A DNA stretch of 64,000 bases from Candidatus Sumerlaeia bacterium (GCA_019634695.1 JAHCAW010000017.1:7322-71321); one strand, 5' to 3'; positions 8,427 through 31,389 are shown, counted from the first letter of the stretch. The notes: generated from the letters alone by a model not told the origin. Numbers and translations are program-made.

Positions 8427-9854
8427 ATGAGCGACCATCCGGTTCATCGCCACGACCAGGCCGACCCGATCGACGAGCAACACGTGCGCGGCAAGTTCGC
8501 CTCGCGGCTCGGATTCCTGCTGGCGGCGGTCGGTTCGGCGGTTGGTCTGGGCAACATCTGGAAGTTCCCCTTCGTGGCGGGGCAGAATGGCGGCGCGGCG
8601 TTCATCCTCGTGTATCTGGGGTGCGTGGCATTCGTCGCCCTGCCGGCGTTGCTGGTGGAGTTCTCGCTCGGACGCCACTGCCAGACGAGCGCCGTCGGCA
8701 CGTATCGGCAGATCGCGCCGGGCCGGCCGTGGTGGCTGAACGGCCTGCTGGGCGTCGTGGCGGGTTTCGTGATCCTCAGCTTCTACAGTGCCGTGGCCGG
8801 CTGGGTGCTGAAGTACTTCGTCACGGGCGTGACGCAGGGCTACTCGGACTTCACGCCGGAGGCGAGCGGCGGCCTGTTCGTCGGCTTCATCAATGGCACG
8901 TCGGGGCCTCTGGCGTATCAGTTCGTCGCGATGGTGCTGACGACGGTGATCATCTTCTTCGGCATCGAGAAGGGAATCGAGCGGACGGCGAAGTACCTCG
9001 TGCCGCTGCTGGGCGTCCTGCTGGTGGCGCTGGTGGTGCGGTCGGTGACGCTGCCGGGCTCGCGCGAGGGATTGCTGTTCATGTTCCGCCCGGACTTCGG
9101 AAAGCTGAACGCGATGAGCTTCGTCAACGCGATGGGGCTGGCGTTCTTCTCGTTGTCGGTCGGCATGGGGGCGATGATGACGTACGCCTCGTACGTGGAC
9201 CGGAGCGTGAACCTGGGCAAGACGGCGGTGAACGTGGCGGCGCTGGACACGCTGGTGGCTGTGTTGGCGGGGTTGGCGATTTTCCCGGCGGTGGCGGCTT
9301 TCGGTCAGCAGTTCTCGGGCGGTCCGGGATTGGTTTTCGTCACGCTGCCTCAGGTGTTCGACCAGATGCCGTTCGGCCGCGTGGTCGGCGTGGCCTTCTT
9401 CTTCCTGCTGTTCGTCGCGGCGCTGACCTCGATGATCTCGATCATGGAACCGGTGGTGACGTGGCTGGTGGACGACCTGAACGTGCGGCGGCACGTGGCG
9501 TCGGTGGGGGCCGGCGCGGCGATCTTCGCGCTGGGCGTGCCGGCGTGCCTGAGCGTGACAGGCGACGGCCTGATGGGCGGGATCAAGATTCCGTTCCTCG
9601 GCGGCGAGGTCACCATCTTCGACTTCCTCGACATGGTGAGCCAGAACATCATGCTGCCGCTTGGTGCCTTCATCGCCTGCCTGTTCCTGTTCTTCGGTTG
9701 GAACCGGCAGCGCGCGCTGGCCGAAGTAGCCGGAACGGCGGGCAATCCGCATCATCCGCTGCTGAAAGTCTGGTACTGGTGTGCCGTCACGATCGCGCCG
9801 TTGGGCATTCTCACGATTCTGGTGACGAAGATCCTCGAGATGGCCAAGGGTTGA
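8427..9854 (+). CDS. Na+-dependent transporter, SNF (sodium:neurotransmitter symporter) family
   Basis: The hallmark motif GLGNIWKFPFVAGQNGGAAFILVYL is near the N-terminus. The protein is 475 aa and strongly hydrophobic throughout. Confidence 0.85.
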   Translation: MSDHPVHRHDQADPIDEQHVRGKFASRLGFLLAAVGSAVGLGNIWKFPFVAGQNGGAAFILVYLGCVAFVALPALLVEFSLGRHCQTSAVGTYRQIAPGRPWWLNGLLGVVAGFVILSFYSAVAGWVLKYFVTGVTQGYSDFTPEASGGLFVGFINGTSGPLAYQFVAMVLTTVIIFFGIEKGIERTAKYLVPLLGVLLVALVVRSVTLPGSREGLLFMFRPDFGKLNAMSFVNAMGLAFFSLSVGMGAMMTYASYVDRSVNLGKTAVNVAALDTLVAVLAGLAIFPAVAAFGQQFSGGPGLVFVTLPQVFDQMPFGRVVGVAFFFLLFVAALTSMISIMEPVVTWLVDDLNVRRHVASVGAGAAIFALGVPACLSVTGDGLMGGIKIPFLGGEVTIFDFLDMVSQNIMLPLGAFIACLFLFFGWNRQRALAEVAGTAGNPHHPLLKVWYWCAVTIAPLGILTILVTKILEMAKG

Positions 9855-9911
9855 CGGTCGGGCGGATTCGACGGAGCTCTCGGTGGACCACGCCACGGGC
9901 CATCATGCAAC

Positions 9912-9943
9912 GCGGCCGGGAGAGTGATTGCTCTCCCGGCCGC
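9912..9943. terminator. perfect 13-bp inverted repeat hairpin between convergent genes (bidirectional terminator candidate)
   Basis: GCGGCCGGGAGAG-TGATTG-CTCTCCCGGCCGC lies in the 123-nt gap between the SNF transporter stop and the stop of the giant minus-strand gene. Confidence 0.45.
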
Positions 9944-9977
9944 GCGGTGTCCTGCGGGGTGATGGGTTTCCGTCGCG

Positions 9978-12900
9978 TCAGTACAGCGTCCACTCCGGCA
10001 CGGTCGTGTCGGCGGACTTGATCGTGACGATGGCCGGGCCGTGACGACCTGACTTGCCGTGGACGTCCACATCGACGAGGAAGTAGGCGCGCGATTCGCC
10101 GGCGGCGAGTGGCGTCGTGTCCACGAACGTGTAGACGGCTCCGGAGACCTCGGTGCCTTCGCCCGGGATGATCGCGCCATTGAGGCGCGCGCCCGGGGCG
10201 AAGCCGTTGCCGACCGGCACGGCGGCGTGCAGGTGGAAGCCGACGTGGGCGATTTCGGCGGCCGTTTCCCAACGCACGGTGACCGGAGTGCCGGGGCCCG
10301 GCGTGCTGGCCTCGAAGGAAACCAGCTCGACGAGTGTAGGCGAGCCGACGCCGAGCGCCCCGAGGTGCAGGATCTCGCCGTTGACGAAGGTCTTGCTCGG
10401 CGGCTCTGGCAGGAGACCGACGCTGTGGTCGCCCTTCGCGCCATCCGTGAAGACCACCCGCACGTGCGTCAGGTCCGGGAAGCTCGGGTAGCTGGCGCCG
10501 ACGTCTCCGTCGAAGTTGAAGTCGTACAGATGGTTGTTGGGGTTGGTGGGCGTGGGTCCGTAGCCGTAGATGTTCTGCAGACCCGGGTCGTCCTCGTAGT
10601 AGATGTCGACGGTGGCGCTGTTGCCGGGGCTGAGGCCGCCGATGGCGATGTCGAACCACCCGCGCGGGTAGTCCGTTTCGTCGATCGTGGTGGCCGAGGA
10701 GGGCGCATCGATCAGGCTGACGGAGAAGGTGAACTCCGGGCTGGGATTCGCCAGTGCGTGCGTGACGTACTTGTTGCTGACCGGATCGCGCTGCGACAGG
10801 ACGAAGTGCTGAGTGCTGTCGTTCTCGCCGTCACCGTTGCCGTCGGCCCAGCGGGCCGAGCGCGAGGGCCGGCCGTTCTCGACGAGGTCCGGGATGCCGT
10901 CGTTGTCGTAGTCCTGCGTCTCGAAGGCTCCCGAGTCGGGAACCGTATTGTGAATGCGCAGGGCGGGCATGCCGCGTTGGTCGATGAAGATGATGCCGTC
11001 TCCCGGAACGCCGCGCAGGTTGTCCTCGTTCACGTGAATCGCGAGGGCATTGTCGATGGCGGGGCTGCCATCGAGCAGGGCATGCGTCGCTGTCGGTCCG
11101 CCGAACTCGTCGAGGAACGAGATGCGCGGATCGAGCGGGATGGCGGTGGTTCCGACGGCGTCGGTGCCGTCCCAGATGCCTGTCGGATTGGCGATGCCGA
11201 TCACGTTGCCACCGCCGGAGAGGAGATAGCTGGCATTGGGTTCGAGGTCGGCATGGGCGACACTCGGTCCGGCGGCAGTGGTGTTCGCCGCCAGGATCGA
11301 GTTCTGTATCGTGGTGCTGGCATAGTCGGCCATCCAGAGCCCGCCGCCGAATCCCGAGCCGGAGGTGGCCTCGTTGGCGGTGATCGTGGCGTGCGTCAGC
11401 TTCGCCTCGCCGAAGATGGCCATGCCGCCGCCCGTGGGGGCGCGGTTGCCGCTCAGGGTGCTGTTGCCGACCAGCAGCTTCGTGAAGTTGCCGGCCGCGA
11501 TGCCGCCACCCAGGGCGTTGATGGTTTGGTTGAAGGCCACGGTCGAGCCGTGCAGCGTCAGTCTGCCGCCGTCGGCAACCTGGATACCGCCGCCCTTGGA
11601 GGTCGCTTGGTTGCCGCTCACTGTGGAATCGTACAAGTGCAGGTCTCCGCTGCTCCAGATGCCGCCGCCGTATTCGGAAGCCTGTCCGTCGCGCACGGCG
11701 GTCTCGATCAAGTAGAGCGTTCCCGCATTGTTCCGCACGATGGCGCCCGAATCGGCGACGCCCTTCATGATCTGGAGGCGCGAAACCTGGACCTGCCAGT
11801 TGCCATCGATGTCGAGCACGCGGCCCGACCCGTCCGACTCGATCACCAGACTGTCCGTGCCGAGTCCCAGGATGAAGACGTCCCGGTCGATCGTGAGCTG
11901 CGAGCCGAGCAGGTGGGTCCCGAACCCGGTGTCTCCGTCGAAGTAGACCGTGCCGCCGAAGCCGATATGGGCGAGAGCCTCGCGCAGCGAGGTGCCCGAG
12001 CCTTCGCCCAGATTGCTGTCATTCTCGTCGGCCGTTGTCGTCACGACAAGATCCGTGTAGCCGGCCACGCCGTAGACGTCCTGGGTGTTGTTGAGCATGC
12101 CCTCCAGATAGCCGAACGTGAGCGGCGCGTCGGGCGAGGAGTTGCTCGGATCGAAGATCGAGTTGAAGAAGGTCACGTCGGCGCCCTCGCGGATGTAGAC
12201 GGCAGCGCCGAGGCCAAGCCCGCGCGCGCCATCACCAGCCACCTTGGCCACCGACCCCTCGCCCTTCTTCACGGCGATGTCGACGGACGTGCCGCCGAAG
12301 CCGCCCTGGACGATGTTGTTGTGGAACTCGCAGTCCTCGAAACGGACGCGAGCCGGAGTCGTGATGAACCGTCCGACGGCAACGTCGACGAAGACCGCGC
12401 CACCAAGGCCGGCACCACCGCCGCCACCACCACCGCCGTTCCTTTGGCCACCTTCGCCGCCGTGCAGGCCGCCAGCACCCGGTTGCTCGGAGCCAATCGC
12501 GCCGCCGCCGCCGCCGCCGAAGCCGCCCTCGCCGCCGTAGTTGATACTTGAATAGCTCGCACCGCCGCCGCCGCCGAAGTCGCCGCCACGGCCGCCATCG
12601 GCGCCGATGCCGTCGTCGCCCGAGCTGCCACCGCCACCTCCGGCGCCGCGGCCACCATCGCCGCCGCGTTCGGCGAGCATCTCCGTTCCGCCAGCGCCAC
12701 CCGTGCCGTTGAAGAGCGGACCATCACCTCCGCGTCCACCGTTTAGCTCGCCCGGTTCGCCGAAGCCGTACTTGCCCAAGCCGGACGTGCCGCCGCCGCC
12801 GCCGCCCGTTGAACTCTCCACGCCGTCGAAGTAGTATCCGGCGTAGCCTCCATCGCCGCCAATGGCGCTGTTGTCCGTGAACGTCACGCCGCGGAAGATT

Positions 12901-15900
12901 GCCGCAACTGTCGGGGCGACATAGACGCCACCGCCGAAGCCGGCACCGCCGCCGCCACCGTTGGCGCCGGGGCCGCCGTCGCCACCGCGGTTGTAGCCGT
13001 CGGCGATCGTGATCCCCTCAACGTTGATGCGCCCGTTCAGCAGCGCCATCACGCGCGACTCGCCGCCGCCGCTGACGGTCAGCAGCGAGGAACCCGGACC
13101 AAGGATCGACTTGTCGGTCAGGATCGGGAGTTCGCCGGTCGCGGCGTCGATCTCGATGGTTTCGCCCCAGAGAGTGTCGTCGAAGAGGACCGTGCCGCGC
13201 GAGGCGGTGTAGCGAATCGCTTCGCGCAGCGTCACCTCGCCGGGGAACAAGCTGGCGTTGTCCTCGTCGTCGGTCGAATCGACCGTCAGCGAGGGAATTG
13301 CTTCGTAGGCGCCGAGATCGATCCTGCCCCCGATCATGCGGGCAACGCCGCGGGCGTCGGTGGCGGGCTGCGTCGCAATCGAGGGATTGCCGGCGTCGAC
13401 CGCCGGGCCGTCGACCCGCAGCGGCAGCGTCGGCACAGGGCCGCCGTGGTCCGCTGGCCACGGATCGAGCACGAGCGAGACATCGGAGCCGAAGATCTCC
13501 TGCGGGCCGAATCCGGTTGTGGACAGGACGTTGCCAACGAGGTTGAAGCCGTCGGAGTTGAAGTCGCCCGACAGGTCGTCGCCATCGTTGCCGAGGATGA
13601 TCGAGTGGCGGATCGTGGCGTTGGAGACCGGGTTGTACGGAAAGTGCGCCACGGCCCCGCCGGAGAAGCTCGAGTTCCGCACGATCGTCGAGTGCTCGAT
13701 GAGGACGTTCATCTGCTGGGTGCAGCACTCGGCGAAGGCGATCGCGCCGCCATCGTAGAACGTCGAGGCGTTGCCGTGGAAGGTGCTGTTCACGACATGA
13801 ATGTCGTTGCTGAAGACGTTTGTCCACGCCATGATGGCGCCACCTGCGCCGCCATCCGCATAGTTGTTCAGGAAGGTCGAGTTGTTTACCGTCAGGTCGC
13901 CACCGATCATGTAGATGCCGCCGCCCTCGTCCGCGATATTGTTGCGAAAGAGGCTGTCCTCGACAACGACGGAGCCCTTGTAGCTTGACCCGTCGGCGTA
14001 CAGGATGCCGGCACCGGTGGCGTCGTTCTCCTGCAGGATCATTCTCTCGAGCCTCAGATCTGTCTGCACGGCATAGATCGCGCCGCCGCCCTGGTTGGTG
14101 CTGCCACGTTGCAGGGTCAAGTCGGTCATCGTGAAGGGGCGACCGTCCCTGGAGACCCGGAAGATGCGCATCTGGTTCTGGCCGTCGATGGCGAGCAGGT
14201 CCCGTCCGGGGCCGTTGATGAACATCGCCCGATCGATCATCAGATTGTCGTACTGCGAGTCCAGCAACAGGGTCTGCGGGCCATCGACGAACATGCTGTT
14301 GTCGAACTGGATCGTTCCGCCGGGCGCGATCAAGCGCGTTGCCTCGCGCAGCGACAGGTCCCCGTAGGAGTGGTCGCCGTCGTTCTCGTCGACCAGCGTG
14401 CTGACAAGAACGAAGGGGTTGGATTCGACGGCGCCGATATCGACCCTGCCGTTGGCCAGGCGGTTGATGCCGCGTTGGTCACCGACCAGCGAGAAGGGAG
14501 GATCGGGGAAGTTGATCGGGGAGACGTGCGAGTTCAGTCCCGCATCGATCACGGGGCTGCCGGCCATGGGATGGAAGGTCCGGGTAAAACCGCCGAAGTC
14601 GTTGATCGGCAGGAGCATCGGATCCAGCGGGCTGGCGATCGTGCCGATCTGGTCGTCGGTTGCCCCGAATCCCAGCGAGTCGTCGGACCTTGCGATGAAG
14701 TTGCCGCCGTCGCTGGTGAGCGGGGCGAACGCGGACAGGACGTCGGGCCCGGCACTGGCGGTGTTATTGGCGATGATCGTGTTGCGGATCGTCACGCCAG
14801 AGCCGGCCTGGTCCGCAAGACCACCACCCGAGGCGTTTGTTGAGTTGTTGACGATCGTGCAGTTCGTGACGACCAGGCCGCCGCCGTACATGGCGATGCC
14901 GCCGCCGTCGCCGGCAGACGATGCGTTGTTGTTGATCGTCGAGTTCGTCAACGTGACCAGGTTGCCGAAGGTGGCGAGCCCGCCGCCCCCGGTTCCGCCA
15001 TTCGCCTGATTGTTGTTGATCGTCGAGTTGTAGATCGTCAGGTTGCCGTTGGAGGCGATGCCGCCGCCGAAGGGGCCGCTGTTGAGACTGATTGTCGAGT
15101 TCAGGATCGTCAGGTTCGCCCCGTCGAAGACGTTGTTGTTGTGAATGCCGCCGGCGCCCGAGCCGAAGCCCTGCGCGTGATTGGCAGAGATGGTGGAGTT
15201 CTCGATCCGCACGTCGCCGCCACGGATGTCGAGGCCGCCGCCGAACGAACCCGACACCGTGTTGCCCTGGATGGTCGAGTTGCGAATCAGGACCGTCGCG
15301 TTCTCGGTGTAGATGCCGCCGCCGCCGCCGGAGTAGCCGGTGTTCTGGCGGATATTGCTGTTGAGCACGGTCAGGACGCCATAGTTGGCGATCGCGCCAC
15401 CGGTGGTCGCCTGGCAGAACTGGATGACCGTGCCTTCGACCGTCAGGATGCCGTTGTTGAGGATCGCGCCGCCGCCTCCGGCGAAGGCGTTGCCGTTGAT
15501 CAGGCGCAGGCCGGAGATGGTCGCCGTGCCGCCCTGAACGAAGAAGTGCCGGAAGGAATCCTGGGCATCGAGGGTGATGTTCTCGCCGCCCGGGCCGACG
15601 ATCTCGATCGACTGGGGCAGGTTCAGCGTGCCGAGCTGGAGCGTGCTGGTGCCCGACAGGCTCCCGTCGAAGTAGACCGTACCGCCCGGACCGAGGCCGC
15701 CGATCGCCTCGCGCAGCGAGGTGCCGTCACCCACGCCGATGCCGTTGTCCTCGTCGGTCAGCGTGTCGACGACGATCACGGCGCGATTCAGCGTGCCGAA
15801 GACGTCGCTGGTGTCGGAGGGCTGATCGTACGTGAAGCCGCTGCCGCCGGTGCTCGAGGCGACGTTGCCGAAGAAGTAGACATTGTCGGCGATGGCCGTG

Positions 15901-17036
15901 GCCGAGGGATGGACGAAAATGGCTCCGCCGCGTCCTTCTCCGTCCGTGGCCGGCACACCAACCGTCGCCCCCGCCGCGCCACCGATCGCCGAAGTGAAGT
16001 AGATAGCCGTGTCCCGCACGTCCAAGTGCGCACCCGGGCCGACGAAGATGGCACCGCCGAGGCCGGCTCCGCCGCCACCGCCGCCACCCAGACTCGACTG
16101 GCCGCCGTTGCCGCCAAACATTCCCCCGTTGCCCGGGCTGGACATCGAGGTTCCGCCCCCACCGCCGCCGTAGCCCCCAGTGCCTCCCGAGCCGGTATCG
16201 CGCCCGCCGGCGCCGCCGCCGGCCAAGAATCCGCCGGCTCCGCCATTGCCTCCGCCGCCCAGACCGTTTGCTCCGCCGCCGCCGCCGCCCGCGCCCGGGC
16301 CGCCGGCCGTGCCATTGCCCAAGTTGACGCCGCCGATGCCCGTGCTTCCCGCCAACGGGGAGGCGCTGCCGCCGATGCCGCCCTGATTGACGGCCGAGGC
16401 ACCGCCGGGGCCACCCAACCCGCCGCCCCCGCCGCCCGGCTGGGAAGCGCCCGAATTGCCGTCGGCGCCCGCGCCGCCTTGGGCGCCGCAGTTCCAGAAG
16501 TACATATCCTTGATGCGAACCGATCCCGAGCCGCCGATGTAGATGCCGCCGCCGGCGCCCGCGGCGCCCCCGCCGCCCGAGTGGCCCGCCCCGCCATTGC
16601 CGCCCGTGGCGGTGGCATTCTCGATCCCGAAGCCCGACATCGAGACCGTGCCCGACAGCACCGTGAAGGCCCGACGGTTGTTGCTCGCGTCGATGTAGAG
16701 CTTCCACGAGTCTTCGCCATGTCCGATGAACGTGATGTCGGAGGTGATCGTCGGCAGAGGACCGTTGAGGACGATCGCGCCGGTGACCTGGCTGAGGTCG
16801 ATCACGTCGGCTCCGCTGCCGGCCGGCGCGTCGAAGGAGGGCGCGTCCGTGTTGGCCGCGATGATCGCCTCGCGCAACGAAACGAAGCCGTCGGCGGATG
16901 CAGTATCGTTGGTCGTCGTGACGACAATCACGGCGGGCAAGGCGACCGCTGGCAGGCCGAGGAGCACCGGCGCGACGCGCAGGGCGTGGGGCAGTTTGGC
17001 ACGGGACAGCCGGCAGAAGAAGGAATGCAACGACAC
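9978..17036 (-). CDS. giant secreted repeat protein (~2353 aa). It has five modules, each an SLREA-motif (CSLREA-like) N-domain followed by right-handed parallel beta-helix repeats, with glycine-rich linkers. The C-terminal region is Ca-binding-like DxDxDG plus a beta-sandwich-like domain.
   Basis: Track ORF 9978..17087. GTG at complement 17034-17036 is preferred because GGAGG sits 6 nt upstream. An N-terminal signal follows (LPHALRVAPVLLGLPAVALPAVIVV). The motif recurs five times: TTTNDTASADGFVSLREAI, TDEDNGIGVGDGTSLREAI, VDENDGDHSYGDLSLREAT, TDDEDNASLFPGEVTLREAI, TADENDSNLGEGSGTSLREAL. Between them are long NSTIxNN/NxTIxxN pectate-lyase-like beta-helix repeats and G-rich (GGxGGxG) tracts. 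Confidence 0.8.
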   Translation of the reverse strand: MSLHSFFCRLSRAKLPHALRVAPVLLGLPAVALPAVIVVTTTNDTASADGFVSLREAIIAANTDAPSFDAPAGSGADVIDLSQVTGAIVLNGPLPTITSDITFIGHGEDSWKLYIDASNNRRAFTVLSGTVSMSGFGIENATATGGNGGAGHSGGGGAAGAGGGIYIGGSGSVRIKDMYFWNCGAQGGAGADGNSGASQPGGGGGGLGGPGGASAVNQGGIGGSASPLAGSTGIGGVNLGNGTAGGPGAGGGGGGANGLGGGGNGGAGGFLAGGGAGGRDTGSGGTGGYGGGGGGTSMSSPGNGGMFGGNGGQSSLGGGGGGGAGLGGAIFVGPGAHLDVRDTAIYFTSAIGGAAGATVGVPATDGEGRGGAIFVHPSATAIADNVYFFGNVASSTGGSGFTYDQPSDTSDVFGTLNRAVIVVDTLTDEDNGIGVGDGTSLREAIGGLGPGGTVYFDGSLSGTSTLQLGTLNLPQSIEIVGPGGENITLDAQDSFRHFFVQGGTATISGLRLINGNAFAGGGGAILNNGILTVEGTVIQFCQATTGGAIANYGVLTVLNSNIRQNTGYSGGGGGIYTENATVLIRNSTIQGNTVSGSFGGGLDIRGGDVRIENSTISANHAQGFGSGAGGIHNNNVFDGANLTILNSTISLNSGPFGGGIASNGNLTIYNSTINNNQANGGTGGGGLATFGNLVTLTNSTINNNASSAGDGGGIAMYGGGLVVTNCTIVNNSTNASGGGLADQAGSGVTIRNTIIANNTASAGPDVLSAFAPLTSDGGNFIARSDDSLGFGATDDQIGTIASPLDPMLLPINDFGGFTRTFHPMAGSPVIDAGLNSHVSPINFPDPPFSLVGDQRGINRLANGRVDIGAVESNPFVLVSTLVDENDGDHSYGDLSLREATRLIAPGGTIQFDNSMFVDGPQTLLLDSQYDNLMIDRAMFINGPGRDLLAIDGQNQMRIFRVSRDGRPFTMTDLTLQRGSTNQGGGAIYAVQTDLRLERMILQENDATGAGILYADGSSYKGSVVVEDSLFRNNIADEGGGIYMIGGDLTVNNSTFLNNYADGGAGGAIMAWTNVFSNDIHVVNSTFHGNASTFYDGGAIAFAECCTQQMNVLIEHSTIVRNSSFSGGAVAHFPYNPVSNATIRHSIILGNDGDDLSGDFNSDGFNLVGNVLSTTGFGPQEIFGSDVSLVLDPWPADHGGPVPTLPLRVDGPAVDAGNPSIATQPATDARGVARMIGGRIDLGAYEAIPSLTVDSTDDEDNASLFPGEVTLREAIRYTASRGTVLFDDTLWGETIEIDAATGELPILTDKSILGPGSSLLTVSGGGESRVMALLNGRINVEGITIADGYNRGGDGGPGANGGGGGAGFGGGVYVAPTVAAIFRGVTFTDNSAIGGDGGYAGYYFDGVESSTGGGGGGTSGLGKYGFGEPGELNGGRGGDGPLFNGTGGAGGTEMLAERGGDGGRGAGGGGGSSGDDGIGADGGRGGDFGGGGGASYSSINYGGEGGFGGGGGGAIGSEQPGAGGLHGGEGGQRNGGGGGGGGAGLGGAVFVDVAVGRFITTPARVRFEDCEFHNNIVQGGFGGTSVDIAVKKGEGSVAKVAGDGARGLGLGAAVYIREGADVTFFNSIFDPSNSSPDAPLTFGYLEGMLNNTQDVYGVAGYTDLVVTTTADENDSNLGEGSGTSLREALAHIGFGGTVYFDGDTGFGTHLLGSQLTIDRDVFILGLGTDSLVIESDGSGRVLDIDGNWQVQVSRLQIMKGVADSGAIVRNNAGTLYLIETAVRDGQASEYGGGIWSSGDLHLYDSTVSGNQATSKGGGIQVADGGRLTLHGSTVAFNQTINALGGGIAAGNFTKLLVGNSTLSGNRAPTGGGMAIFGEAKLTHATITANEATSGSGFGGGLWMADYASTTIQNSILAANTTAAGPSVAHADLEPNASYLLSGGGNVIGIANPTGIWDGTDAVGTTAIPLDPRISFLDEFGGPTATHALLDGSPAIDNALAIHVNEDNLRGVPGDGIIFIDQRGMPALRIHNTVPDSGAFETQDYDNDGIPDLVENGRPSRSARWADGNGDGENDSTQHFVLSQRDPVSNKYVTHALANPSPEFTFSVSLIDAPSSATTIDETDYPRGWFDIAIGGLSPGNSATVDIYYEDDPGLQNIYGYGPTPTNPNNHLYDFNFDGDVGASYPSFPDLTHVRVVFTDGAKGDHSVGLLPEPPSKTFVNGEILHLGALGVGSPTLVELVSFEASTPGPGTPVTVRWETAAEIAHVGFHLHAAVPVGNGFAPGARLNGAIIPGEGTEVSGAVYTFVDTTPLAAGESRAYFLVDVDVHGKSGRHGPAIVTIKSADTTVPEWTLY

Positions 17037-17558
17037 GGGACACCTCCGGATGTGGGGCGGTGGACTGCGCTGCAGGCGATCAGGCACACGTCTGGAACGG
17101 GCGACGTCCGCGTGCTCGGCTGCGTGAAATCTCCGCGGGGGAATTCGTATGCTCGTTACGGCAAATAGAATGGTGCGGACAGAACGTCTCGGTGACCGGG
17201 CCTCCGCCCGATGACCCTCCTTGCCAGCCCTTGGGGGCCGCGCAAGGCGCAGGTTCCGACATCATGGCACTGGAAATAGCGGCAAGGCGCGGCACCACAC
17301 AAGGGGGAATTTGAGCGCAGGGCCGGAAATCCGACGGCACGGGTCGCCCCTCGCAGGTGGTTCGCCGATGGGCAAGGTGGGTGGAAGTGCATCAGTCGGA
17401 GAATCGGGAGAATGCGGATACCTAAGGCTTGAAATCTCAGGCGCGCACGAGCCCGCTTTGCCCGTCGGGACCAGCGAAAAACAGCTTGCGGCACTTCGGC
17501 CGGCCTCCGCAGCATCCGCGGCACCGTTGGCATGGCGTAGGAAGTTCAGGGCGCCGAT

Positions 17559-17727: not shown

Positions 17728-18549
17728 ATGAAGGTGACTGCCGAAGCGATCCTGGCCCGTTGGCGCCTCGCCTTCCTTGCCGGGATTGTATTGGTGGCCG
17801 GCGGCGTCAAGGCGCTCGAGCTCACCCACAATCGCGGCTACCAGCCGCTGCAGCCGATTCCGTTCAGCCACAAGGTCCACGCCGGCCAACTCGGCATGGA
17901 CTGCCTCTACTGCCATACCAACGCCGAGCGCTCCAAGCACGCCACCGTCCCTTCGGTCGAAACCTGCATGGGCTGCCATGAGATGGTGCGCACCGACCGC
18001 CCGGCGATTCAGGAGCTGGCCGGCTACTGGGAGCGCGGCGAGCCCGTGCCGTGGGTACGCATCCACAGCCTGCCCGACCACGCCTACTTCAACCACGCCG
18101 CCCACGTGAACGCCGGTGTCTCCTGCCAGACCTGCCATGGCCCCATTCAGGAGATGGAAATCGTCTACCAGTACGTGGACATGAGCATGGGCTGGTGCAT
18201 GTCGTGCCATCGCAGCGACGAGTACCTGCGCACGCCCGAGCGGCTGGCACGCGCCCACGTCCACGGCGAGTTCGCGCACTCGTACTATCGCACGGACGGC
18301 CCGGTGCGCATCGACGCGGCGAAGCTGAAGGAAGAGTACGCCAGCGTGCGGGGGGCGTTCTGGAACGGCGACGACCTGAACCGGCTGACGGCCGGGGCGT
18401 CGGCCCGCGAGGTCAGCGAGGCGATCCGCCAGACGATGGGTTACGACAGTTACGCGCGCCAGGAAGGCACGCGCGGCATCGGCGTGGTGGTCGACCACGT
18501 CAAGGCCTTTCAGAATGCCTCGATCGCCTGCAACACGTGTCACCAGTAG
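17728..18549 (+). CDS. actA: alternative complex III subunit ActA, pentaheme cytochrome c
   Basis: Five CxxCH motifs (CLYCH, CMGCH, CQTCH, CMSCH, CNTCH). There is an N-terminal membrane anchor. GGGAG SD is 7 nt upstream of the ATG. It is the first gene of the act cluster. Confidence 0.85.
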   Translation: MKVTAEAILARWRLAFLAGIVLVAGGVKALELTHNRGYQPLQPIPFSHKVHAGQLGMDCLYCHTNAERSKHATVPSVETCMGCHEMVRTDRPAIQELAGYWERGEPVPWVRIHSLPDHAYFNHAAHVNAGVSCQTCHGPIQEMEIVYQYVDMSMGWCMSCHRSDEYLRTPERLARAHVHGEFAHSYYRTDGPVRIDAAKLKEEYASVRGAFWNGDDLNRLTAGASAREVSEAIRQTMGYDSYARQEGTRGIGVVVDHVKAFQNASIACNTCHQ

Positions 18550-18565
18550 CGCGAAGGACGTCGCG

Positions 18566-21500
18566 ATGACCGAGCAGTCCCAACGGCCGATTCTGTGGTC
18601 CACCCTCGAGGAATACGAGGGCGATGCCGACGCGCTCGCCCGGCAGGGCGGGGGCGAGTGGAACAGCAAGCCCACGGGCTTTGCCGAAGCGCTCGAGAAC
18701 CTCGGGCTGCCCGAGGTGCAGTTGCGCCGCCGTACGTTCCTCAAGATGAGCGGCTTTGCGGCCGTGCTGGCCATGGCGGCCGGCTGCCAGAAGCCCGCCG
18801 AGAAGATTCTGCCCTACGTCACCGCCCCCGAGGACATGGTGCCCGGGGTGCCGAACTACTACGCCTCGACGTGCGGCGGTTGTGCCGCCGGCTGCGGGCT
18901 GCTGGTGAAGACCTACGAGGGGCGCCCGATCAAGCTGGAGGGCAACCCGTCGAGCCCGGTCAACCGCGGCACGTTGTGCGCCCGCGGGCAGGCCTCGCTG
19001 ATAGACCTCTACGACCCCGACCGGCTGCGCCGGCCGCTGGTCGTTGCCTCGGGCGGCACGTCGCCGTGGGAGGCGTTGGACGAGCAGATTGCGCGGGCGT
19101 TGCGTGGTGCGGGCTCGCGCGCCGTACTGCTGACGGGCACGATCCATGGCCCGGCGCGGACCGCCGTGGTGGCCGAGTTGCAGCGCGCTTTCCCGGGCCT
19201 GCGGCACGTCGTATATGACGCGCTGGCCGACGAGGCCGCCGTGCAGGCGCGCGAGATGCTCTTCGGTCAGGCGTCGCTGCCGCGCGTGGACTTTGCCGCC
19301 TCGGAAGTCACCGTCCTGTTCGGCGCCGATCCGATGGCCGACAGCGCCTCGCCGGTCGAGGCGATGGCCGGCATCGGTGCCTCGCGCAAGGTGCGCGAGA
19401 AGGACGGCCGCAAGGCGATGGGGCGACTGTACGCCTTCGAGCCGTTGGCGACGCTGAGCGGCATGAACGCGGACTATCGCTTCGCGGTGCGACCGAGCGA
19501 TCTGGCGTCGGTGGCGATCGCGGTGGCGTCGGAGTTGCAGAAGGCCGGTCACTCGGTGGTGCCGGGCGTGCCGGCGCTGGGCGTGGACACGGCGGCGGTC
19601 GAGCGGCGCGCCGGACTGGCGGCCGGCACGGTGGCCAAGGTTGCGGCGGATCTTTGGGCGCATCGCGATGGCCGGGCAGTGGTCGTGGCCGGCGGCGCGC
19701 TGGGCCGCACCAAGCAGGCGCTGGACCTGCACCTTGCGGCGAACCTGATCAATGCGATGATCGGCGCCGAGGGCACGATCGTGGACTCGAGCCGCCCCAG
19801 CCACCAGGCTCAGGGGTCGGCGGCCGCGATGCTGGCGCTCGTCGAGGAGATGAAGACGGGTGGCGTCGAGGTGCTGCTGATCGAGGGCACGAATCCGGCG
19901 TATTCGCTGCCGGCGAGCGCGGGCTTTGCTGCGGCGCTCGGACGCGTGCGGACGAAGGTCTCCTTCTCGACGCATCGCGACGAGACGGCCGCGCTGTGCG
20001 ACCTGGTGCTGCCGGGCGTGCACTTCCTCGAGAACTGGGGCGACGCGGAGCCGCACGCCGGGCATCTGAGCCTGCGGCAGCCGACGATGGGCCGGCTGTG
20101 GGACAACCGGGCATTCGAAGAGTCGCTGATGCGCCTTGCAGCAGCCGGGGGCTCGAAGGCTTTCGAGGTCGTCGTGCCGGCGGCCGGCGAGGGTGCCGAG
20201 CCGACCACGCGCCCGATGACGTGGCACGAGTTCCTGATGAAGACGTGGGAAGAGAAGGTCTTCGCGGCGGGCGGCTTTGCGGCGCCGCGCTTCGAGGACT
20301 TCTGGTTCGAGGCCTTGCGGCGCGGCACGGTGGAGTTGCCGGCGCGGCAGGCCAAGGGAACGACGGTGCGCGACGCGGGTGCGGTGGCGCGGCGGCTGGC
20401 CAGCGTGCGCGCGGGCAATCCCGAGACGCTCGAACTGGCGACGTTCGCGATGCCGAACGTGGGCGACGGACGCCAGGCGAACAACCCGTGGCTGCTCGAG
20501 CTGCCCGACCCCGTCTCGCGCATCTGCTGGGACAACTTCGTGGCGCTGGCGCCGGCGACGGCGCGCGCGCAGAACTTGCGTGACGGCGACATCGTCGAGG
20601 TGACGGTGCATGGCCAGTCGGTGCTGGCGCCGGCGCGGATTCATCCGGGCATGCATGCGGGCGTGGCAGCGGTCGGCACCGGCTGGGGCCGGACGGCGGC
20701 GGGCGCGGTCGGCAACGGCGAGGGCTTCAACGCCTTCGCGCTGGGCCGCGCGCACGGCGGCGAGCTGCTGCTGTCGGGCGAACCGGCAAGCATCCGCAAG
20801 ACCGGGCGCCGCATCGTGCTGGCCGACGTGCAGGGCCACAACTACATGAAGCGCGACCCGCGCAACGAGCACGAGTACAACCGGCCGCTCGTCCAGGCCA
20901 CGAGCCTCGAGTTGCTCAACAAGCACGAGGACGCGCCGCAGGCCGTGCATCACATTCCCTACTGGAAGAAGGGCCAGCCCAAGCCCGACGCGTGGGGCAC
21001 GAAGGATTTCGACGGCAACGTGCAGCACAAGTGGGCGATGGCGATCGACCTGAACGCGTGCAACGGCTGCGGCGCGTGCATGGTGGCTTGTCAGGCGGAG
21101 AACAACATCCCGGTGGTCGGCAAGCGCGAGGTGCTGGTCGGCCGCGAGATGCACTGGATTCGTATCGACCGCTACTACAAGGGCGACCTGGACAACCCCG
21201 AGATCGTCAAGCAGCCGATGCTGTGCCAGCACTGCGACAACGCGCCGTGCGAGACGGTCTGCCCGGTGCTGGCGACGGTGCACAGCGCCGACGGCATCAA
21301 CCAGCAAGTCTACAACCGCTGCGTGGGCACGCGCTACTGCGCGAACAACTGCCCGTACAAGGTGCGCCGGTTCAACTTCTACGAATACTCGAAGTTCCGC
21401 AAGGGCCCGCACGACGAGCTCGAGAAGGGTGCCGAGGACAAGGTCGCGGAAACGCCCTTGGCGCTGGCGCTCAACCCCGAGATCACGGTGCGCACCAAGG

Positions 21501-21895
21501 GCATCATGGAGAAGTGCACCTTCTGCCAGCAGCGCATCCGGCTGGCGAAGGACGACGCGAAGAAGCAGGGCCGGTCGATTCCGGACGGCGGCTTCAAGAC
21601 CGCCTGCCAGCAGACCTGTCCGCCGCAGGCGATCGTCTTCGGCGACGTGTTCGACGAGAACCACGAGATCGCGCGCGTGCACGACGAGAACGCCGGCCGT
21701 CGCGGTTACGGAGTCCTGGAAGAATTCAACGTCCGCCCCAACGTGATGTATCTGGCCCACGTCTGGAACCGCGAGACGAGGAAGTGGGACGTGGACTACC
21801 ACACCGAAAAGGCGCACGGAAAGCACGACGACCACGGCGCCGATGACAAGCATCACTCGCACTCGGGCGAGCCCGCAGGGAGGGCCGAGTCTTGA
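18566..21895 (+). CDS. actB: alternative complex III subunit ActB (fused molybdopterin-oxidoreductase-like B1 + 4x[4Fe-4S] ferredoxin-like B2), Tat-exported
   Basis: Twin-arginine signal [21 protein letters not shown]. The C-terminal half carries four Cys clusters ([45 protein letters not shown]...CQQTCP). Length is 1110 aa. Confidence 0.85.
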
Positions 21896-23466
21896 GCGCG
21901 ACGACCCATCACCTGCACGGCGCCCCTCTCGACCCGGGCACGCACGACCACGGGCACCACGCCGACGACGGCCATGGCCATGGCGGCATGACGCCCGACG
22001 GCTCGGCACCGCTCGTCGATCCCAAGTACTCGATGCGCGACATCACGGACGACGTGCTGGCGCCGATGTTCAAGTTCCCCCCGCTGGCCTGGCACATGGC
22101 CTTCGGCGCCGCGCAGCTCGCCTTCGCGATCGGCGCCGTCTGCGTCGCCGTCCAGATGATCCGCGGCCTCGGCATCCTGGGCATCAACAACCCGATCGGC
22201 TGGGGTGTCTACATCACGGACTTTGTCTTCTGGGTCGGCATCGGCCACGCCGGCACGCTGATCTCGGCGATCCTGTTCCTGTTCCGCCAGAAGTGGCGCA
22301 CGGCGATCAACCGCTCGGCCGAGGCGATGACGATCTTCGCCGTCATGTGCGCCGGTCTCTTCCCGCTGCTGCACGTCGGCCGCACGTGGAAGGCCTACTG
22401 GCTGTTCCCCTATCCGAACGACCGGCTGCTCTGGGTGAACTTCCGCTCGCCGCTGCTGTGGGACGTGTTCGCCGTCTCGACCTACGCGACGGTGTCGATG
22501 ATCTTCTGGTACACCGGCCTGATTCCGGACATGGCGACGGCGCGCGACCGGGCGAAGAACAAGATTCAGAAGGCGATCTACGGAATGCTGGCGATGAACT
22601 GGACGGGCTCGGTGCGCGACTGGGCGCACTACGAGCGTGTCTACGCGCGCTTTGCGTGGCTGGCGACGCCGCTGGTGCTCTCGGTGCACTCGGTCGTGTC
22701 GTTCGACTTCGCGGTCTCCATGATCCCGGGCTGGCACACGACGATCTTCCCGCCGTACTTCGTTGCCGGCGCCATCTTCTCCGGCTTCGGCATGGTGATC
22801 ACGCTGCTGGTGCCGATGCGGAAGTTCCTGCGGCTCGAGCACATCATCACGGTCAACCATCTCGAGCTCTGCAACAAGGTGATTCTGGCCACGTCGCTGA
22901 TCGTGGGCTATGCCTACGTCTCGGAGTTCTTCGTGGCCTGGTACTCGGAGGCGCCGTACGAGCGGGCGCAGTTCATGTACCGGCTGATCGGAATGCTGAA
23001 CACGCCCGACGGCGGAATCGCGCACATGTGGGCTTTCTGGACGATGATGATCTGCAACGTGATGATCCCGCAGCTCTTCTGGTCCAAGCGCATCCGTCGC
23101 AACCTGACGATCATGTTCATCATGTCGATCTTCGTGAACATCGGGATGTGGTTCGAGCGCTTCAACATCTTCGTGCTTTCGCTCGAGCACGACTTTCTGC
23201 CGGCAAGCTGGGGTTACTACGTTCCGACGATGTTCGACTGGGGCGTGACGCTGGGCTCGTTCGGCCTGTTCTTCACGCTCTTCCTGGGTTTCTCGCGGGT
23301 GCTGCCGACGATCGCGATCGCGGAGGTGAAGTCGGTGCTGCACCGGCCGAACGCCGGCGGCGTCGAGCGCCCGTTCGAAGTCGTCGTCTGGCCGGACGGC
23401 GAGCCGGCCCCGCAGGCCGAGACCGTTGCCGCCAAGGAGGATGCCACCGATGGCAAGACTCCCTAA
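21892..23466 (+). CDS. actC: alternative complex III subunit ActC (NrfD/PsrC-like polytopic membrane quinol-interacting subunit)
   Basis: TTG start overlaps the actB stop (TTGA), with GGGAGGG SD 8 nt upstream. The 524-aa product is very hydrophobic, with NrfD-like segments ([21 protein letters not shown]). Confidence 0.8.
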
Positions 23467-24605: not shown

Positions 24606-24669
24606 AAGGAGAGGGTCCACCCGACCGGAGCACTCGCAGCCCGGTTGGCCGACCAACGGACGGAACCCA

Positions 24670-27628: not shown

Positions 27629-27683
27629 GACGGCCGTCCCGGCGCGCGCGATCGCGGGCCGCGACCAAAGGAGCCCAACGCTC

Positions 27684-31382: not shown

Positions 31383-31389
31383 GACGGCG

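What the first reader, a model, noticed from the sequence alone, without database searches (positions are those of the whole stretch)
9978..17036. 2353-aa secreted protein built from five SLREA-domain plus parallel-beta-helix modules with glycine-rich linkers
The N-terminal domain motif ([TD]-x-[DN]-[ED]-[ND]...G-[DE]-x-SLREA[IL]) recurs five times at ~450-aa spacing. Each time it is followed by NxTIxxN-type right-handed beta-helix rungs and GGxGGxG tracts. The C-terminus adds DxDxDG calcium-type loops (DGNGDGEND, DFNFDGDVG) and a terminal beta-sandwich-like segment (VELVSFEA...VTVRWETAAEIAHVGFHL). The gene starts at GTG with a strong GGAGG and is terminated by a perfect 13-bp hairpin. It accounts for 11% of the window. 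Five-fold reiteration of the whole CSLREA-like module in one polypeptide is unusual and suggests a modular adhesin, polysaccharide lyase or surface-layer-like fibre.
Basis: seen in the sequence. Interest (0 to 1): 0.6.

Follow-up and report, generated by a model that had tools for sequence, protein, structure and literature searches.

The report
Giant modular beta-helix surface protein
This is an intact gene for a 2352-residue secreted rod-like protein from an uncultured Sumerlaeota bacterium; it belongs to a common family of giant repeat proteins, and its least-described part is a C-terminal tag shared by many other secreted proteins of that phylum.

Summary
The ORF is real: minus strand 9978-17036, GTG start with GGAGG 6 nt upstream, 2352 aa, no stops, 15-bp hairpin downstream. 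The identical protein is already in NCBI as a Candidatus Sumerlaeia MAG "right-handed parallel beta-helix repeat-containing protein".

The five [ST]LREA caps are real, but the modules are of two kinds.
- **B modules (2, 3, 5):** PF13229 beta-helix with NxT rungs, ending in a choice-of-anchor Q domain.
- **A modules (1, 4):** a glycine-rich variant. AlphaFold2 predicts an ordered solenoid (pLDDT 89), not linkers.

NxT rungs and GGxGGxG tracts are almost mutually exclusive between the two kinds. Spacing is 374-455 aa.

Five-fold reiteration is not unusual. Most of the top 120 homologues (largely Planctomycetota and Verrucomicrobiota where named) carry 3-8 such modules. Two Sumerlaeota orthologues keep the same five modules in the same order.

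The C-terminus is acidic calcium-type loops, a diverged choice-of-anchor U domain, and an Ig-like domain ending in V-x-[DE]-W-x-[LM]-[YF]-COOH. That last domain matches no Pfam or NCBIfam model. It has about 7,300 cluster representatives. With the tail, it sits at the extreme C-terminus of Sumerlaeota secreted proteins with varied passengers.

Most likely this is a Sec-exported surface fibre or adhesin carrying a lineage-specific C-terminal tag. Function is untested. It is a new member of a known kind.

The parts
9978..17036 (-). Complete CDS: 2352 aa plus stop, GTG start.
   Evidence: The protein is 100% identical to P0001, an NCBI Candidatus Sumerlaeia MAG entry. GC3 is 0.86, like neighbouring genes.
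17043..17047 (-). Shine-Dalgarno GGAGG, 6 nt upstream of the GTG.
   Evidence: Read directly from the sequence.
16932..17036 (-). Putative Sec signal peptide, aa 1 to about 35. The n-region carries 4 K/R and the h-region is VAPVLLGLPAVALPAVIV.
   Evidence: hydrophobicity heuristic. Orthologue P0003 has a canonical signal peptide, MKARALLGSALALGLFLPVAGTA. The cleavage site is not determined.
15792..16931 (-). Module 1 (type A): CSLREA cap (VSLREA) followed by a glycine-rich solenoid module.
   Evidence: TIGR04214 scores 25.7 bits against a cutoff of 25. No Pfam hit. It is 36% identical to module 4 in alignment A4 and shares its conserved Gly blocks.
14427..15791 (-). Module 2 (type B): TSLREA cap, right-handed beta-helix with six NST rungs about 27 aa apart, then a choice-of-anchor Q domain.
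   Evidence: PF13229 47.1 bits, NF041518 51.7 bits, TIGR04214 13.6 bits (below cutoff).
14421..14624 (-). Choice-of-anchor Q domain 1 (aa 805-872).
   Evidence: NF041518 51.7 bits against a cutoff of 25.
13305..14426 (-). Module 3 (type B): LSLREA cap, Pmp-like beta-helix (FxxN and GGAI rungs), then a choice-of-anchor Q domain.
   Evidence: PF13229 27.3 bits, PF02415 21.6 bits, TIGR01376 19.7 bits, NF041518 56.8 bits, weak RbtA TIGR04212 34 bits.
13299..13454 (-). Choice-of-anchor Q domain 2 (aa 1195-1246).
   Evidence: NF041518 56.8 bits.
12063..13304 (-). Module 4 (type A): VTLREA cap followed by a glycine-rich solenoid module.
   Evidence: AlphaFold2 model m15fd31e71a28 has pLDDT 89 and pTM 0.90. 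Beta-helix rungs lie at both ends, and the Gly-rich centre is ordered. No PDB fold match has E < 0.04.
10929..12062 (-). Module 5 (type B): TSLREA cap, beta-helix, then a choice-of-anchor Q domain.
   Evidence: PF13229 35.5 bits, NosD 22.4 bits, TIGR04214 19.3 bits, NF041518 47.5 bits.
10920..11132 (-). Choice-of-anchor Q domain 3 (aa 1969-2039).
   Evidence: NF041518 47.5 bits.
10812..10919 (-). Acidic calcium-type loops, aa 2040-2075: DYDNDGIPDLVENG ... DGNGDGENDSTQ.
   Evidence: The loops are conserved in 7 Sumerlaeota proteins (alignment A6). Calcium binding is inferred from the DxDxDG pattern only.
10425..10679 (-). Diverged choice-of-anchor U domain, aa about 2120-2204.
   Evidence: NF041766 scores 17.4 bits here, below the cutoff of 32. 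All 7 of 7 aligned Sumerlaeota homologues match, the best at E = 8.6e-16.
10023..10334 (-). Ig/FnIII-like seven-strand beta-sandwich, the core of the C-terminal domain (aa about 2235-2338).
   Evidence: AlphaFold2 pLDDT 90.5. The PDB search finds only generic Ig/FnIII folds. No Pfam or NCBIfam model matches. There are 7278 cluster representatives at E <= 1e-3.
9981..10007 (-). Conserved C-terminal tail TTVPEWTLY-COOH, with family consensus [ST][SG]-V-x-[DE]-W-x-[LM]-[YF].
   Evidence: Of 126 C-terminally placed domains among the best hits, 104 end this way. The W lies 17-18 aa after the conserved HGP motif in most (65 of 98). The tail is coil with low pLDDT in the model.
9910..9945 (.). 15-bp perfect hairpin between the convergent giant gene and the SNF symporter gene. 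It is a likely terminator but has no U-tract.

Best explanation
The gene encodes a Sec-exported protein of about 240 kDa from a Candidatus Sumerlaeia bacterium. It is built as a chain of five beta-solenoid modules, each opened by a CSLREA-type cap.

Three modules are classical right-handed parallel beta-helices of the Pmp/RbtA kind, and each is closed by a choice-of-anchor Q domain. Two modules are a glycine-rich variant of the same module, predicted to be an ordered solenoid rather than a flexible linker.

The chain is followed by a stalk: acidic calcium-type loops, a choice-of-anchor U domain, and an Ig-like domain ending in the tail VPEWTLY-COOH. In Sumerlaeota this terminal Ig-like domain with its tail is shared by many secreted proteins with unrelated passenger domains. 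I infer that it directs export across, or retention on, the cell envelope.

I also infer that the protein is displayed as a rigid rod that binds surfaces, polymers or other cells. If the modules stack end to end, the rod would be roughly 25-35 nm long, from about 4.8 A per rung.

- **Shown:** the ORF, its domain composition, conservation of the layout, and the distribution of the C-terminal domain.
- **Inferred:** export, anchoring, and adhesive rather than catalytic function.
For: **The gene**
- The ORF is intact with a ribosome-binding site.

**Domain composition**
- CSLREA_Nterm, Beta_helix (three modules), choice_anch_Q (three copies), and Chlam_PMP/POMP repeats are detected.
- The Gly-rich modules form a conserved family (alignment A4). 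Their predicted fold is confident (pLDDT 89, pTM 0.90).
- C1 is choice_anch_U in 7 of 7 homologues.

**Conservation**
- Orthologues P0002 (77% identity in the best local alignment) and P0003 (43%) have the same length.
- Each P0003 module best matches its positional counterpart in this protein: 183-365 bits, against 236 bits or less for any other module.
- The P0002 locus is syntenic with the window. The P0003 locus is not, and no partner gene is conserved.

**The C-terminal domain**
- A profile search gave 7278 hits. Of the 151 proteins examined (the 150 listed plus this one), 126 have the domain at the extreme C-terminus, and 104 of those carry the W-x-x-[YF] tail.
- Passenger domains include Peptidase_S8, C11, Endonuclease_1, FG-GAP, LTD, SdrD_B and Beta_helix.
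- Of 78 tail-bearing proteins that start with M, 55 pass a crude signal-peptide test.
- All five tail-bearing hits that carry an organism name are Sumerlaeia.
- In the species-representative genome scan, only the three Sumerlaeota loci have the terminal tail.

**Literature**
- A CSLREA-domain protein is a T2SS-dependent secreted protein in A. baumannii (PMC9245377).
- RbtA is described as a cell-surface protein with a solved beta-helix structure (PMC12643943).
Against: - No experiment exists for any Sumerlaeota protein, and the organism is uncultured.
- The signal peptide was judged by eye and by a heuristic, not by SignalP. The JGI gene call for P0002 starts later and lacks the n-region.
- No adhesion domain of known specificity is present.
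- Beta-helices are also the scaffold of many glycan lyases and hydrolases.
- No sorting enzyme or secretion system was found nearby or linked to the C-terminal domain.
- The taxonomic restriction of the tail rests on 8 named cases and on a narrow genome-scan pattern (WETAAE).
- AlphaFold2 does not place the tail confidently, so it may simply be an edge strand.
- The ranking of the top 150 hits is mildly biased toward the tail, because the query profile included it.
Confidence: 0.6

Rival explanations
1. The beta-helix modules are catalytic (polysaccharide lyase, hydrolase or epimerase). On this view the protein is a multi-domain extracellular depolymerase rather than an adhesin.
For: - The right-handed beta-helix is the scaffold of pectate, alginate and chondroitin lyases and of phage tailspikes. 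These are the weak fold neighbours of module 4.
- Module 5 has a weak NosD hit and module 2 weak DUF5123/DUF4957 hits.
- Other Sumerlaeota proteins with the same C-terminal domain are hydrolases: S8, C11 and endonuclease I.
- The syntenic P0002 locus carries GH123 and GH43 genes next to the giant gene.
Against: - No lyase or glycoside-hydrolase family matches at E <= 1 in any module.
- No PDB sequence hit was found.
- The fold matches have E > 0.04 and TM <= 0.25.
- The best family-level relatives, Pmp repeats and RbtA, have no known enzymatic activity.
- Five tandem catalytic domains would be atypical.
Confidence: 0.12
2. The terminal Ig-like domain with its W-x-x-Y tail is not a sorting or anchoring signal. 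It would be an ordinary structural or ligand-binding Ig domain that happens to be C-terminal, with export and retention determined elsewhere, for example by T2SS recognition of the folded protein.
For: - The core domain occurs internally and in tandem in other phyla (P0124 and L004, L018, L026). It is therefore a general-purpose module.
- Its fold is generic Ig/FnIII.
- No cognate machinery was identified.
- CSLREA proteins elsewhere use T2SS.
Against: - Of 126 C-terminally placed domains, 83% end in the same 9-residue motif. The motif lies at a near-fixed distance from HGP, with 0-3 residues after it.
- The passenger domains are unrelated to one another.
- In other phyla the same core is followed by recognised anchors (T9SS tails, or a TM helix plus basic tail). 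This places the position immediately before the sorting signal.
- The choice-of-anchor Q and U domains are so named because they accompany varied C-terminal anchors. That point rests on my own knowledge of the NCBIfam naming.
Confidence: 0.3
3. The protein is a self-assembling envelope or S-layer/sheath component, not a monomeric adhesin. The C-terminal tail would act as a donor strand or an anchor to a cell-wall polymer.
For: - The protein is very large and predicted to be rigid, with calcium-type loops.
- The C-terminal aromatic tail is unstructured in the monomer model.
- One protein of the family carries an SLH-like Glucodextran_C module.
Against: - No SLH or S-layer family hit was found in this protein.
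- It is a single-copy, stand-alone gene with no assembly genes nearby.
- The same tag sits on proteases and nucleases, which are unlikely lattice subunits.
Confidence: 0.1
4. The ORF is an annotation or assembly artefact, or a decaying pseudogene.
For: - The sequence comes from a MAG.
- The high-GC, repetitive Gly codons could misassemble.
Against: - There are no stops in 7 kb.
- Two independent orthologues of 2326 and 2332 aa show module-by-module collinearity.
- P0003 was recovered on two independent assemblies.
- Internal DNA repeats are only 60-75% identical.
Confidence: 0.02

Closest known systems
Multi-module "choice-of-anchor Q / CSLREA domain-containing" giant proteins, named in Planctomycetota and Verrucomicrobiota (for example Gemmataceae MAG proteins, Aquisphaera insulae, Prosthecobacter algae; P0004, P0019, P0026, P0014)
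   Same: - The repeating unit is the same: CSLREA-type cap, then beta-helix, then choice-of-anchor Q. It is reiterated 3-8 times in proteins of 1,350-4,060 aa.
- Some also contain Gly-rich modules: P0006, P0019, P0109.
- Identity is 27-35% over 15-45% of the query.
   Different: - Those proteins end in other C-terminal regions, among them dockerin-like or acidic repeats, PKD/Big domains, and Calx-beta.
- This one ends in choice-of-anchor U plus the Sumerlaeota Ig-like domain with the W-x-x-Y tail.
- The A-B-B-A-B order is specific to the Sumerlaeota orthologues.
Rhombotarget A (RbtA, TIGR04212; A. baumannii; PDB 9CDV and 9CDU)
   Same: - It has an N-terminal CSLREA cap followed by a right-handed beta-helix.
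- It is secreted or cell-surface located.
- It is the only solved structure of this class (PMC12643943).
- There is weak HMM similarity (33.7 bits) and a weak fold match to module 4.
   Different: - RbtA has a single module of about 617 aa.
- It carries a GlyGly-CTERM signal processed by rhombosortase (my knowledge of the family definition).
- The equivalog cutoff of 295 bits is far from met, and there is no GlyGly-CTERM here.
Chlamydial polymorphic membrane proteins (Pmp; PF02415, TIGR01376)
   Same: - GGA[ILV] and FxxN rung motifs are present in modules 3 and 5 (PF02415 21.6 bits, TIGR01376 19.7 bits).
- Pmps are beta-helical adhesins (my knowledge).
   Different: - Pmps are type V autotransporters with a C-terminal beta-barrel.
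- Here the C-terminus is an Ig-like sandwich, and no autotransporter domain was detected.
C-terminal sorting domains such as the T9SS CTD (Por_Secre_tail, PF18962)
   Same: - It is a seven-strand Ig-like sandwich of about 100 aa at the extreme C-terminus of Sec-dependent secreted proteins.
- It accompanies many unrelated passenger domains.
- It is restricted to particular lineages.
   Different: - There is no sequence match to PF18962 or TIGR04183.
- In Bacteroidota the homologous core domain precedes a genuine T9SS tail, so the two are not the same module.
- No cognate machinery is known, and cleavage or attachment is untested.

Membership tests
CSLREA_Nterm (TIGR04214) | HMM score at or above the curated cutoff (25 bits), located directly after the signal peptide. 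| tested here: met
   Whole protein 51.4 bits. The first copy, aa 37-62, scores 25.7 bits. The internal copies score 13.6, 19.3 and 10.8 bits, and module 3 gives no hit. They are recognisable only by alignment and motif.
CSLREA_Nterm (TIGR04214) | The eponymous Cys in the C-S-L-R-E-A motif (family name; my knowledge). | tested here: not met
   The five motifs read VSLREA, TSLREA, LSLREA, VTLREA and TSLREA. None has a Cys.
choice-of-anchor Q (NF041518) | HMM score at or above 25 bits. | tested here: met
   Three copies score 51.7, 56.8 and 47.5 bits, at the C-terminal end of modules 2, 3 and 5. The whole protein scores 136.9 bits.
Right-handed parallel beta-helix (PF13229) | HMM score at or above 25.9 bits, with periodic rungs. 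| tested here: met
   Modules 2, 3 and 5 score 47.1, 27.3 and 35.5 bits. NST rungs are 24-33 aa apart. Modules 1 and 4 give no hit, but AlphaFold2 predicts beta-helix rungs at both ends of module 4.
Rhombotarget A (TIGR04212, equivalog) | Equivalog cutoff of 295 bits and a GlyGly-CTERM signal. | tested here: not met
   The score is 33.7 bits. The C-terminus is an Ig-like domain ending in WTLY, with no Gly-Gly and no TM helix.
Chlamydial Pmp / type V autotransporter | Pmp repeats together with a C-terminal autotransporter beta-barrel. | tested here: not met
   The repeats are marginally present: PF02415 21.6 bits against 20.6, and TIGR01376 19.7 bits against 15. No autotransporter domain was detected, and the C-terminus is a beta-sandwich.
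choice-of-anchor U (NF041766) | HMM score at or above 32 bits. | tested here: inconclusive
   The window copy scores 17.4 bits (E = 0.006), below the cutoff. All 7 aligned Sumerlaeota homologues of this region match, the best at E = 8.6e-16.
T9SS C-terminal domain (PF18962 / TIGR04183) | HMM match at the extreme C-terminus. | tested here: not met
   No hit at E <= 1 in the window protein or in 45 family members. Bacteroidota homologues have the core domain upstream of a separate T9SS-type tail.
Polysaccharide lyase or glycoside hydrolase beta-helix families | Match to a lyase or GH family model, or a close fold match with catalytic residues. | tested here: not met
   No such Pfam or NCBIfam hit. 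Fold matches for module 4 have E >= 0.048 and TM <= 0.25. Catalytic residues were not examined.
Generic C-terminal protein-sorting domain (concept) | Extreme C-terminal position on many proteins with unrelated passenger domains and N-terminal signal peptides. | tested here: met
   126 of 151 are terminal, and 104 of those carry the tail. 18 passenger Pfam families were found. 55 of 78 pass a signal-peptide heuristic.
Generic C-terminal protein-sorting domain (concept) | Many paralogues per genome, and co-occurrence with a dedicated sorting or secretion machinery. | not testable with these tools
   Only 2 members per MAG could be shown: P0121 and P0122 in KF858, and P0128 and P0179 apparently in one Sumerlaeia MAG. 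Whole genomes could not be scanned, and no machinery was seen in the window.
Generic C-terminal protein-sorting domain (concept) | Proteolytic removal, or covalent attachment through the signal. | not testable with these tools
   This needs proteomics or biochemistry.

The most novel reading that the evidence does not exclude
The roughly 120-aa Ig-like C-terminal domain, together with its invariant tail [ST][SG]-V-x-[DE]-W-x-[LM]-[YF]-COOH, is a previously undescribed protein-sorting or surface-attachment signal largely specific to Sumerlaeota. It would be recognised by an unidentified export or anchoring machinery. It would define the phylum's surface and secreted proteome, which includes proteases, nucleases, VCBS/FG-GAP proteins and giant beta-helix fibres such as this one. 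By the same logic, the Chloroflexota ending VFLPxV after the same core domain would be a second unnamed signal.
Probability: 0.35. Interest if true: 0.6.

Novelty: new member of a known kind. Interest (0 to 1): 0.33.

Why it matters
The giant protein itself is an expected kind of object. Multi-module CSLREA / beta-helix / choice-of-anchor Q proteins are abundant in Planctomycetota, Verrucomicrobiota and related uncultured phyla, and none has a demonstrated function.

Three points give it some value.
- **A cleaner module description.** There are two module types. The glycine-rich one is predicted with confidence as an ordered solenoid and has no close PDB fold. This corrects the "linker" reading and marks a target for structural work.
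- **Evidence of selection.** The five-module layout is kept across deep Sumerlaeota divergence (43% identity in the best local alignment), so the protein is under selection.
- **An uncurated C-terminal domain.** Its conserved terminal motif tags many secreted Sumerlaeota proteins. If it is a sorting signal, it would allow the surface proteome of an uncultured phylum to be predicted from sequence, and it would point to unknown secretion or anchoring machinery.

Tried and rejected
- **Word-index homologue search, C-terminal query.** Searching with the C-terminal 318 aa returned nothing, not even the protein itself.
- **Word-index homologue search, CTD profile.** This returned only 7 short proteins. 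The word index seems to miss long proteins for short queries, so these results say nothing about distribution. The exhaustive HMMER search was used instead.
- **Genome scan with the 45-sequence alignment.** A 10-sequence subset worked, but only through the narrow pattern Vx[LVI][TEA]WETAAE. The phylum counts are therefore a sample, not a census.
- **PDB sequence search.** No hits.
- **Other copies in the window.** No other copy of any module or of the CTD was found in the window or in other Sumerlaeota loci.
- **Conserved neighbour genes.** None was found that could be a partner or a sorting enzyme.
- **Sumerlaeota literature.** The papers held in the library say nothing about envelope, secretion or adhesins.
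- **Autotransporter reading.** Rejected, because there is no beta-barrel at the C-terminus.
- **OMP beta-signal reading of the tail.** Rejected. Hydrophobic residues sit at positions 1, 2, 4 and 7 from the end, not at alternating positions.
- **Recent tandem duplication or misassembly.** Rejected.
Full report
**1. The observation**

The ORF exists as described. It runs on the minus strand from a GTG at 17036 to a stop at 9978-9980 and gives 2352 aa with no internal stop. GGAGG lies 6 nt upstream of the GTG. An in-frame GTG 51 nt further upstream is possible, but it has no ribosome-binding site and NCBI does not use it.

Third-position GC is 0.86, like the neighbouring genes. A perfect hairpin with a 15-bp stem and a 6-nt loop lies 33 nt after the stop. 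Its dG is -41 kcal/mol, with z = -5.0 against shuffles. No U-tract follows it, so the consensus terminator scan does not report it. It sits between this gene and the convergent SNF-family symporter gene at 8427-9854.

[ST]LREA occurs at aa 53, 440, 895, 1269 and 1683, which gives spacings of 387, 455, 374 and 414 aa. Shuffles of the protein give about 0 occurrences. A looser cap consensus matches all five.

**2. Two module types, not one**

All nine NxT[ILVF]xxN rungs lie in modules 2, 3 and 5. Seventeen of the eighteen GGxGGxG tracts lie in modules 1 and 4. HMM scans of the separate modules agree with this split.

- **Modules 2, 3 and 5 (type B).**
  - They pass PF13229 Beta_helix at 47.1, 27.3 and 35.5 bits.
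  - Each ends in a choice-of-anchor Q domain, NF041518, at 51.7, 56.8 and 47.5 bits.
  - Module 3 also marginally passes the chlamydial Pmp repeat models.
- **Modules 1 and 4 (type A).**
  - They match no Pfam family.
  - Only module 1 passes CSLREA_Nterm on its own, at 25.7 bits against a cutoff of 25.

The order is therefore A-B-B-A-B.

B modules are 28-32% identical to one another. Modules 1 and 4 are about 36% identical. DNA-level repeats inside the gene are short and 60-75% identical. The duplications are ancient.

**3. The glycine-rich modules**

Modules 1 and 4 align with one another, with their counterparts in the two orthologues, and with similar modules in five unrelated giant proteins. 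They share conserved blocks: GGGGGAAGxGGAIFV, GGxGGFGGGGGG, GGGGGAGLGGAIFV, GxGKGGAIFV and DVYG (alignment A4).

AlphaFold2 on that alignment gives pLDDT 89 and pTM 0.90 for module 4. Beta-helix rungs are predicted at residues 1-150 and 300-380. The Gly-rich centre is confidently placed (block pLDDT mostly 84-95) but has almost no DSSP-assigned strand.

I read this as an ordered glycine-rich continuation of the solenoid, not a flexible linker. This is a prediction from 14 sequences, and I could not inspect the coordinates.

Foldseek against the PDB finds nothing with E below 0.04. The weak neighbours are pectate-lyase-like helices, RbtA (9CDV) and, very weakly, phage gp38. A PDB sequence search finds nothing.

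**4. Origin and relatives**

The identical protein is in NCBI as [quoted passage not shown] (P0001).

Two orthologues exist. P0002 is 2326 aa and 77% identical in the best local alignment; JGI calls it a "CSLREA domain-containing protein". P0003 is 2332 aa, 43% identical in the best local alignment, and comes from a Candidatus Sumerlaeota MAG. Each P0003 module best matches the module at the same position in this protein, at 183-365 bits against 236 bits or less for any other module. The five-module layout therefore predates the split of these lineages and has been kept.

The P0002 locus is syntenic with the window, with alternative complex III on one side and the SNF symporter, M16 peptidase, amidohydrolase and TauE on the other. 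The P0003 locus has different neighbours. The gene stands alone, and no partner gene is conserved.

Beyond these, 299 proteins score E <= 1e-10. The 120 listed are 1,350-4,060 aa long, and those that carry an organism name are mostly from Gemmataceae and other Planctomycetota or from Verrucomicrobiota. Most have 3-8 [ST][LV]R[EDQ]A caps, and many include Gly-rich stretches. P0004, for example, has at least eight near-identical cap, helix and Q units. Five-fold reiteration is therefore ordinary for this family.

**5. The C-terminal region**

After module 5 come acidic loops, DYDNDGIPDLVENG and DGNGDGENDSTQ. Next is a segment that scores 17.4 bits against choice-of-anchor U, below the cutoff of 32. 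Its seven Sumerlaeota homologues all match that model, the best at E = 8.6e-16. I treat it as a diverged choice-of-anchor U domain.

The last 120 aa or so match no Pfam or NCBIfam model. This holds for this protein and for 45 family members, all at E <= 1.

A profile of the three orthologous C-termini was searched exhaustively against 1.84 billion cluster representatives. It found 7278 proteins at E <= 1e-3 and 991 at E <= 1e-10. I examined 151 proteins: the 150 listed plus this one.

- 126 have the domain within 25 residues of the C-terminus.
- 104 of those end in [ST][SG]-V-x-[DE]-W-x-[LM]-[YF], with 0-3 further residues.
- The W lies 17-18 residues after a conserved HGP motif in most of them (65 of 98).

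AlphaFold2 on 45 sequences gives a seven-strand sandwich with pLDDT 90.5. The tail is coil at pLDDT 60-75. Foldseek against the PDB returns only generic Ig and FnIII domains, with E >= 2e-3 and TM <= 0.58.

The proteins that carry the domain are 113-2495 aa long. Their passenger domains include SdrD_B, Peptidase_S8, Beta_helix, LTD, Chlam_PMP, FG-GAP, Endonuclease_1 and Peptidase_C11. Of 78 that start with M, 55 pass a crude signal-peptide test.

All five that carry an organism name are Sumerlaeia, and at least two MAGs contribute two members each.

A scan of one genome per species was limited to the pattern Vx[LVI][TEA]WETAAE and found 58 loci. The outcome differs by phylum.

- **Sumerlaeota:** the three loci carry the terminal W-x-x-[YF] tail.
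- **Chloroflexota:** the same core domain is followed by VFLPxV-type endings or by a TM helix plus a basic tail.
- **Bacteroidota:** it is followed by T9SS-type tails.
- **Acidobacteriota, Nitrospirota and some Planctomycetota:** it is followed by a further 730-760 aa or so.

The core is thus a widespread module that typically sits just before the C-terminal anchor. The tail is the lineage-specific part.

**6. How it most likely works**

Shown:
- The gene is intact and conserved.
- The domain composition is as described above.
- The C-terminal domain is a shared, terminal, uncurated module of Sumerlaeota secreted proteins.

Inferred:
- **Sec export.** The N-terminus has four K/R followed by an 18-residue hydrophobic stretch. 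P0003 has a textbook signal peptide.
- **A rigid rod.** The modules would fold into consecutive beta-solenoid segments. At 4.8 A per rung and about 27 aa per rung, the rod would be about 25-35 nm long if the modules stack.
- **Delivery and retention.** The C-terminal domain and tail would deliver or hold the protein on the cell surface.
- **A binding role.** I favour binding over catalysis because the nearest characterised relatives are not enzymes. These are Pmp adhesins (my knowledge) and RbtA, a cell-surface protein with a solved beta-helix structure (PMC12643943). In addition, no lyase or hydrolase model matches.

A CSLREA-domain protein is secreted in a T2SS-dependent way in A. baumannii (PMC9245377). 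T2SS is therefore a plausible route across an outer membrane. Nothing here tests that for Sumerlaeota.

**7. Rivals**

- **Catalytic function.** The beta-helix scaffold allows it, and GH genes lie next to the P2 orthologue's giant gene (P0002). I cannot exclude it.
- **An ordinary Ig domain.** The terminal domain may have no sorting role.
- **A lattice or sheath subunit.**
- **An artefact or pseudogene.** This is very unlikely.

Each rival is scored in the report sections.

**8. Comparison with known families and novelty**

The protein passes the curated cutoffs for CSLREA_Nterm, Beta_helix and choice-of-anchor Q. These are generic domain families, and it is a member of them.

It is not an RbtA equivalog, scoring 33.7 bits against 295 and having no GlyGly-CTERM. 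It is not an autotransporter Pmp, because it has no barrel. It is not a T9SS substrate by any model.

The protein is already deposited and generically annotated, and its kind is common. I rate it a new member of a known kind and give it modest interest.

The part that no curated family covers is the C-terminal Ig-like domain with the W-x-x-[YF] tail. The most novel reading still open is that this is a Sumerlaeota-specific sorting or attachment signal. I put that at about 0.35.

Noticed in passing
L008, L014-L017, L020 (Chloroflexia/Anaerolineae loci), C-terminal ends of the matched ORFs: In Chloroflexota the same Ig-like core domain is followed, 10-20 aa after HGP, by a short ending such as YAVFLPVVGK, VVFLPLIGNR, TVFLPVVMTQQ, SIYLPLILK or KVFLPIVRR. 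This recurrent [VI][FY]LP[VLI][VI] C-terminal motif looks like another unnamed sorting signal.
   Followed up: no
L026, L029, L030, L032, L040 (Thermoanaerobaculia, Acidobacteriota, Nitrospirae, Planctomycetota): Here the core domain is internal. It is followed by about 725-760 further residues that end in a conserved ...LLGDPAL.LK(R) motif, which suggests a different and conserved large C-terminal module.
   Followed up: no
window 17728-33132 (+): A complete-looking alternative complex III cluster lies divergent from the giant gene. It has a cytochrome c7-like ActA, a molybdopterin/FeS ActB, NrfD-type ActC, and cytochrome c ActE. It is directly followed by caa3-type oxidase genes: COX2, COX1, CtaB/UbiA, CtaG and COX3. 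The same arrangement flanks the orthologue P0002.
   Followed up: partly
window 37554-39125 (-) and 39466-42786 (-): Two adjacent Wzy_C (O-antigen ligase-like) membrane proteins. One is unusually long at 1106 aa. This hints at surface glycan assembly and possibly a diderm envelope.
   Followed up: no
window 47087-51994 (-): A 1635-aa protein with a very long TPR array and a C-terminal Ser/Thr kinase domain. An FHA-GAF-histidine kinase lies nearby at 53835-55664 (-).
   Followed up: no
window 57159-59822 (+): A stand-alone NRPS-like protein with adenylation, PCP and thioesterase domains (887 aa) and no condensation domain.
   Followed up: no
L061 17101-21197 (P0002 locus): The orthologous locus is syntenic with the window. 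It carries extra GH123 and GH43-like genes around the SNF symporter gene downstream of the giant gene; the GH123 gene lies between the two.
   Followed up: no
window 33101-35473 (-), 52199-53842 (-), 24472-25896 (+), 45552-46907 (+): Several sizeable high-GC3 ORFs (450-790 aa) have no Pfam match at E <= 1e-3 or 1e-4. The ORF at 24472-25896 sits where ActF would be expected.
   Followed up: no
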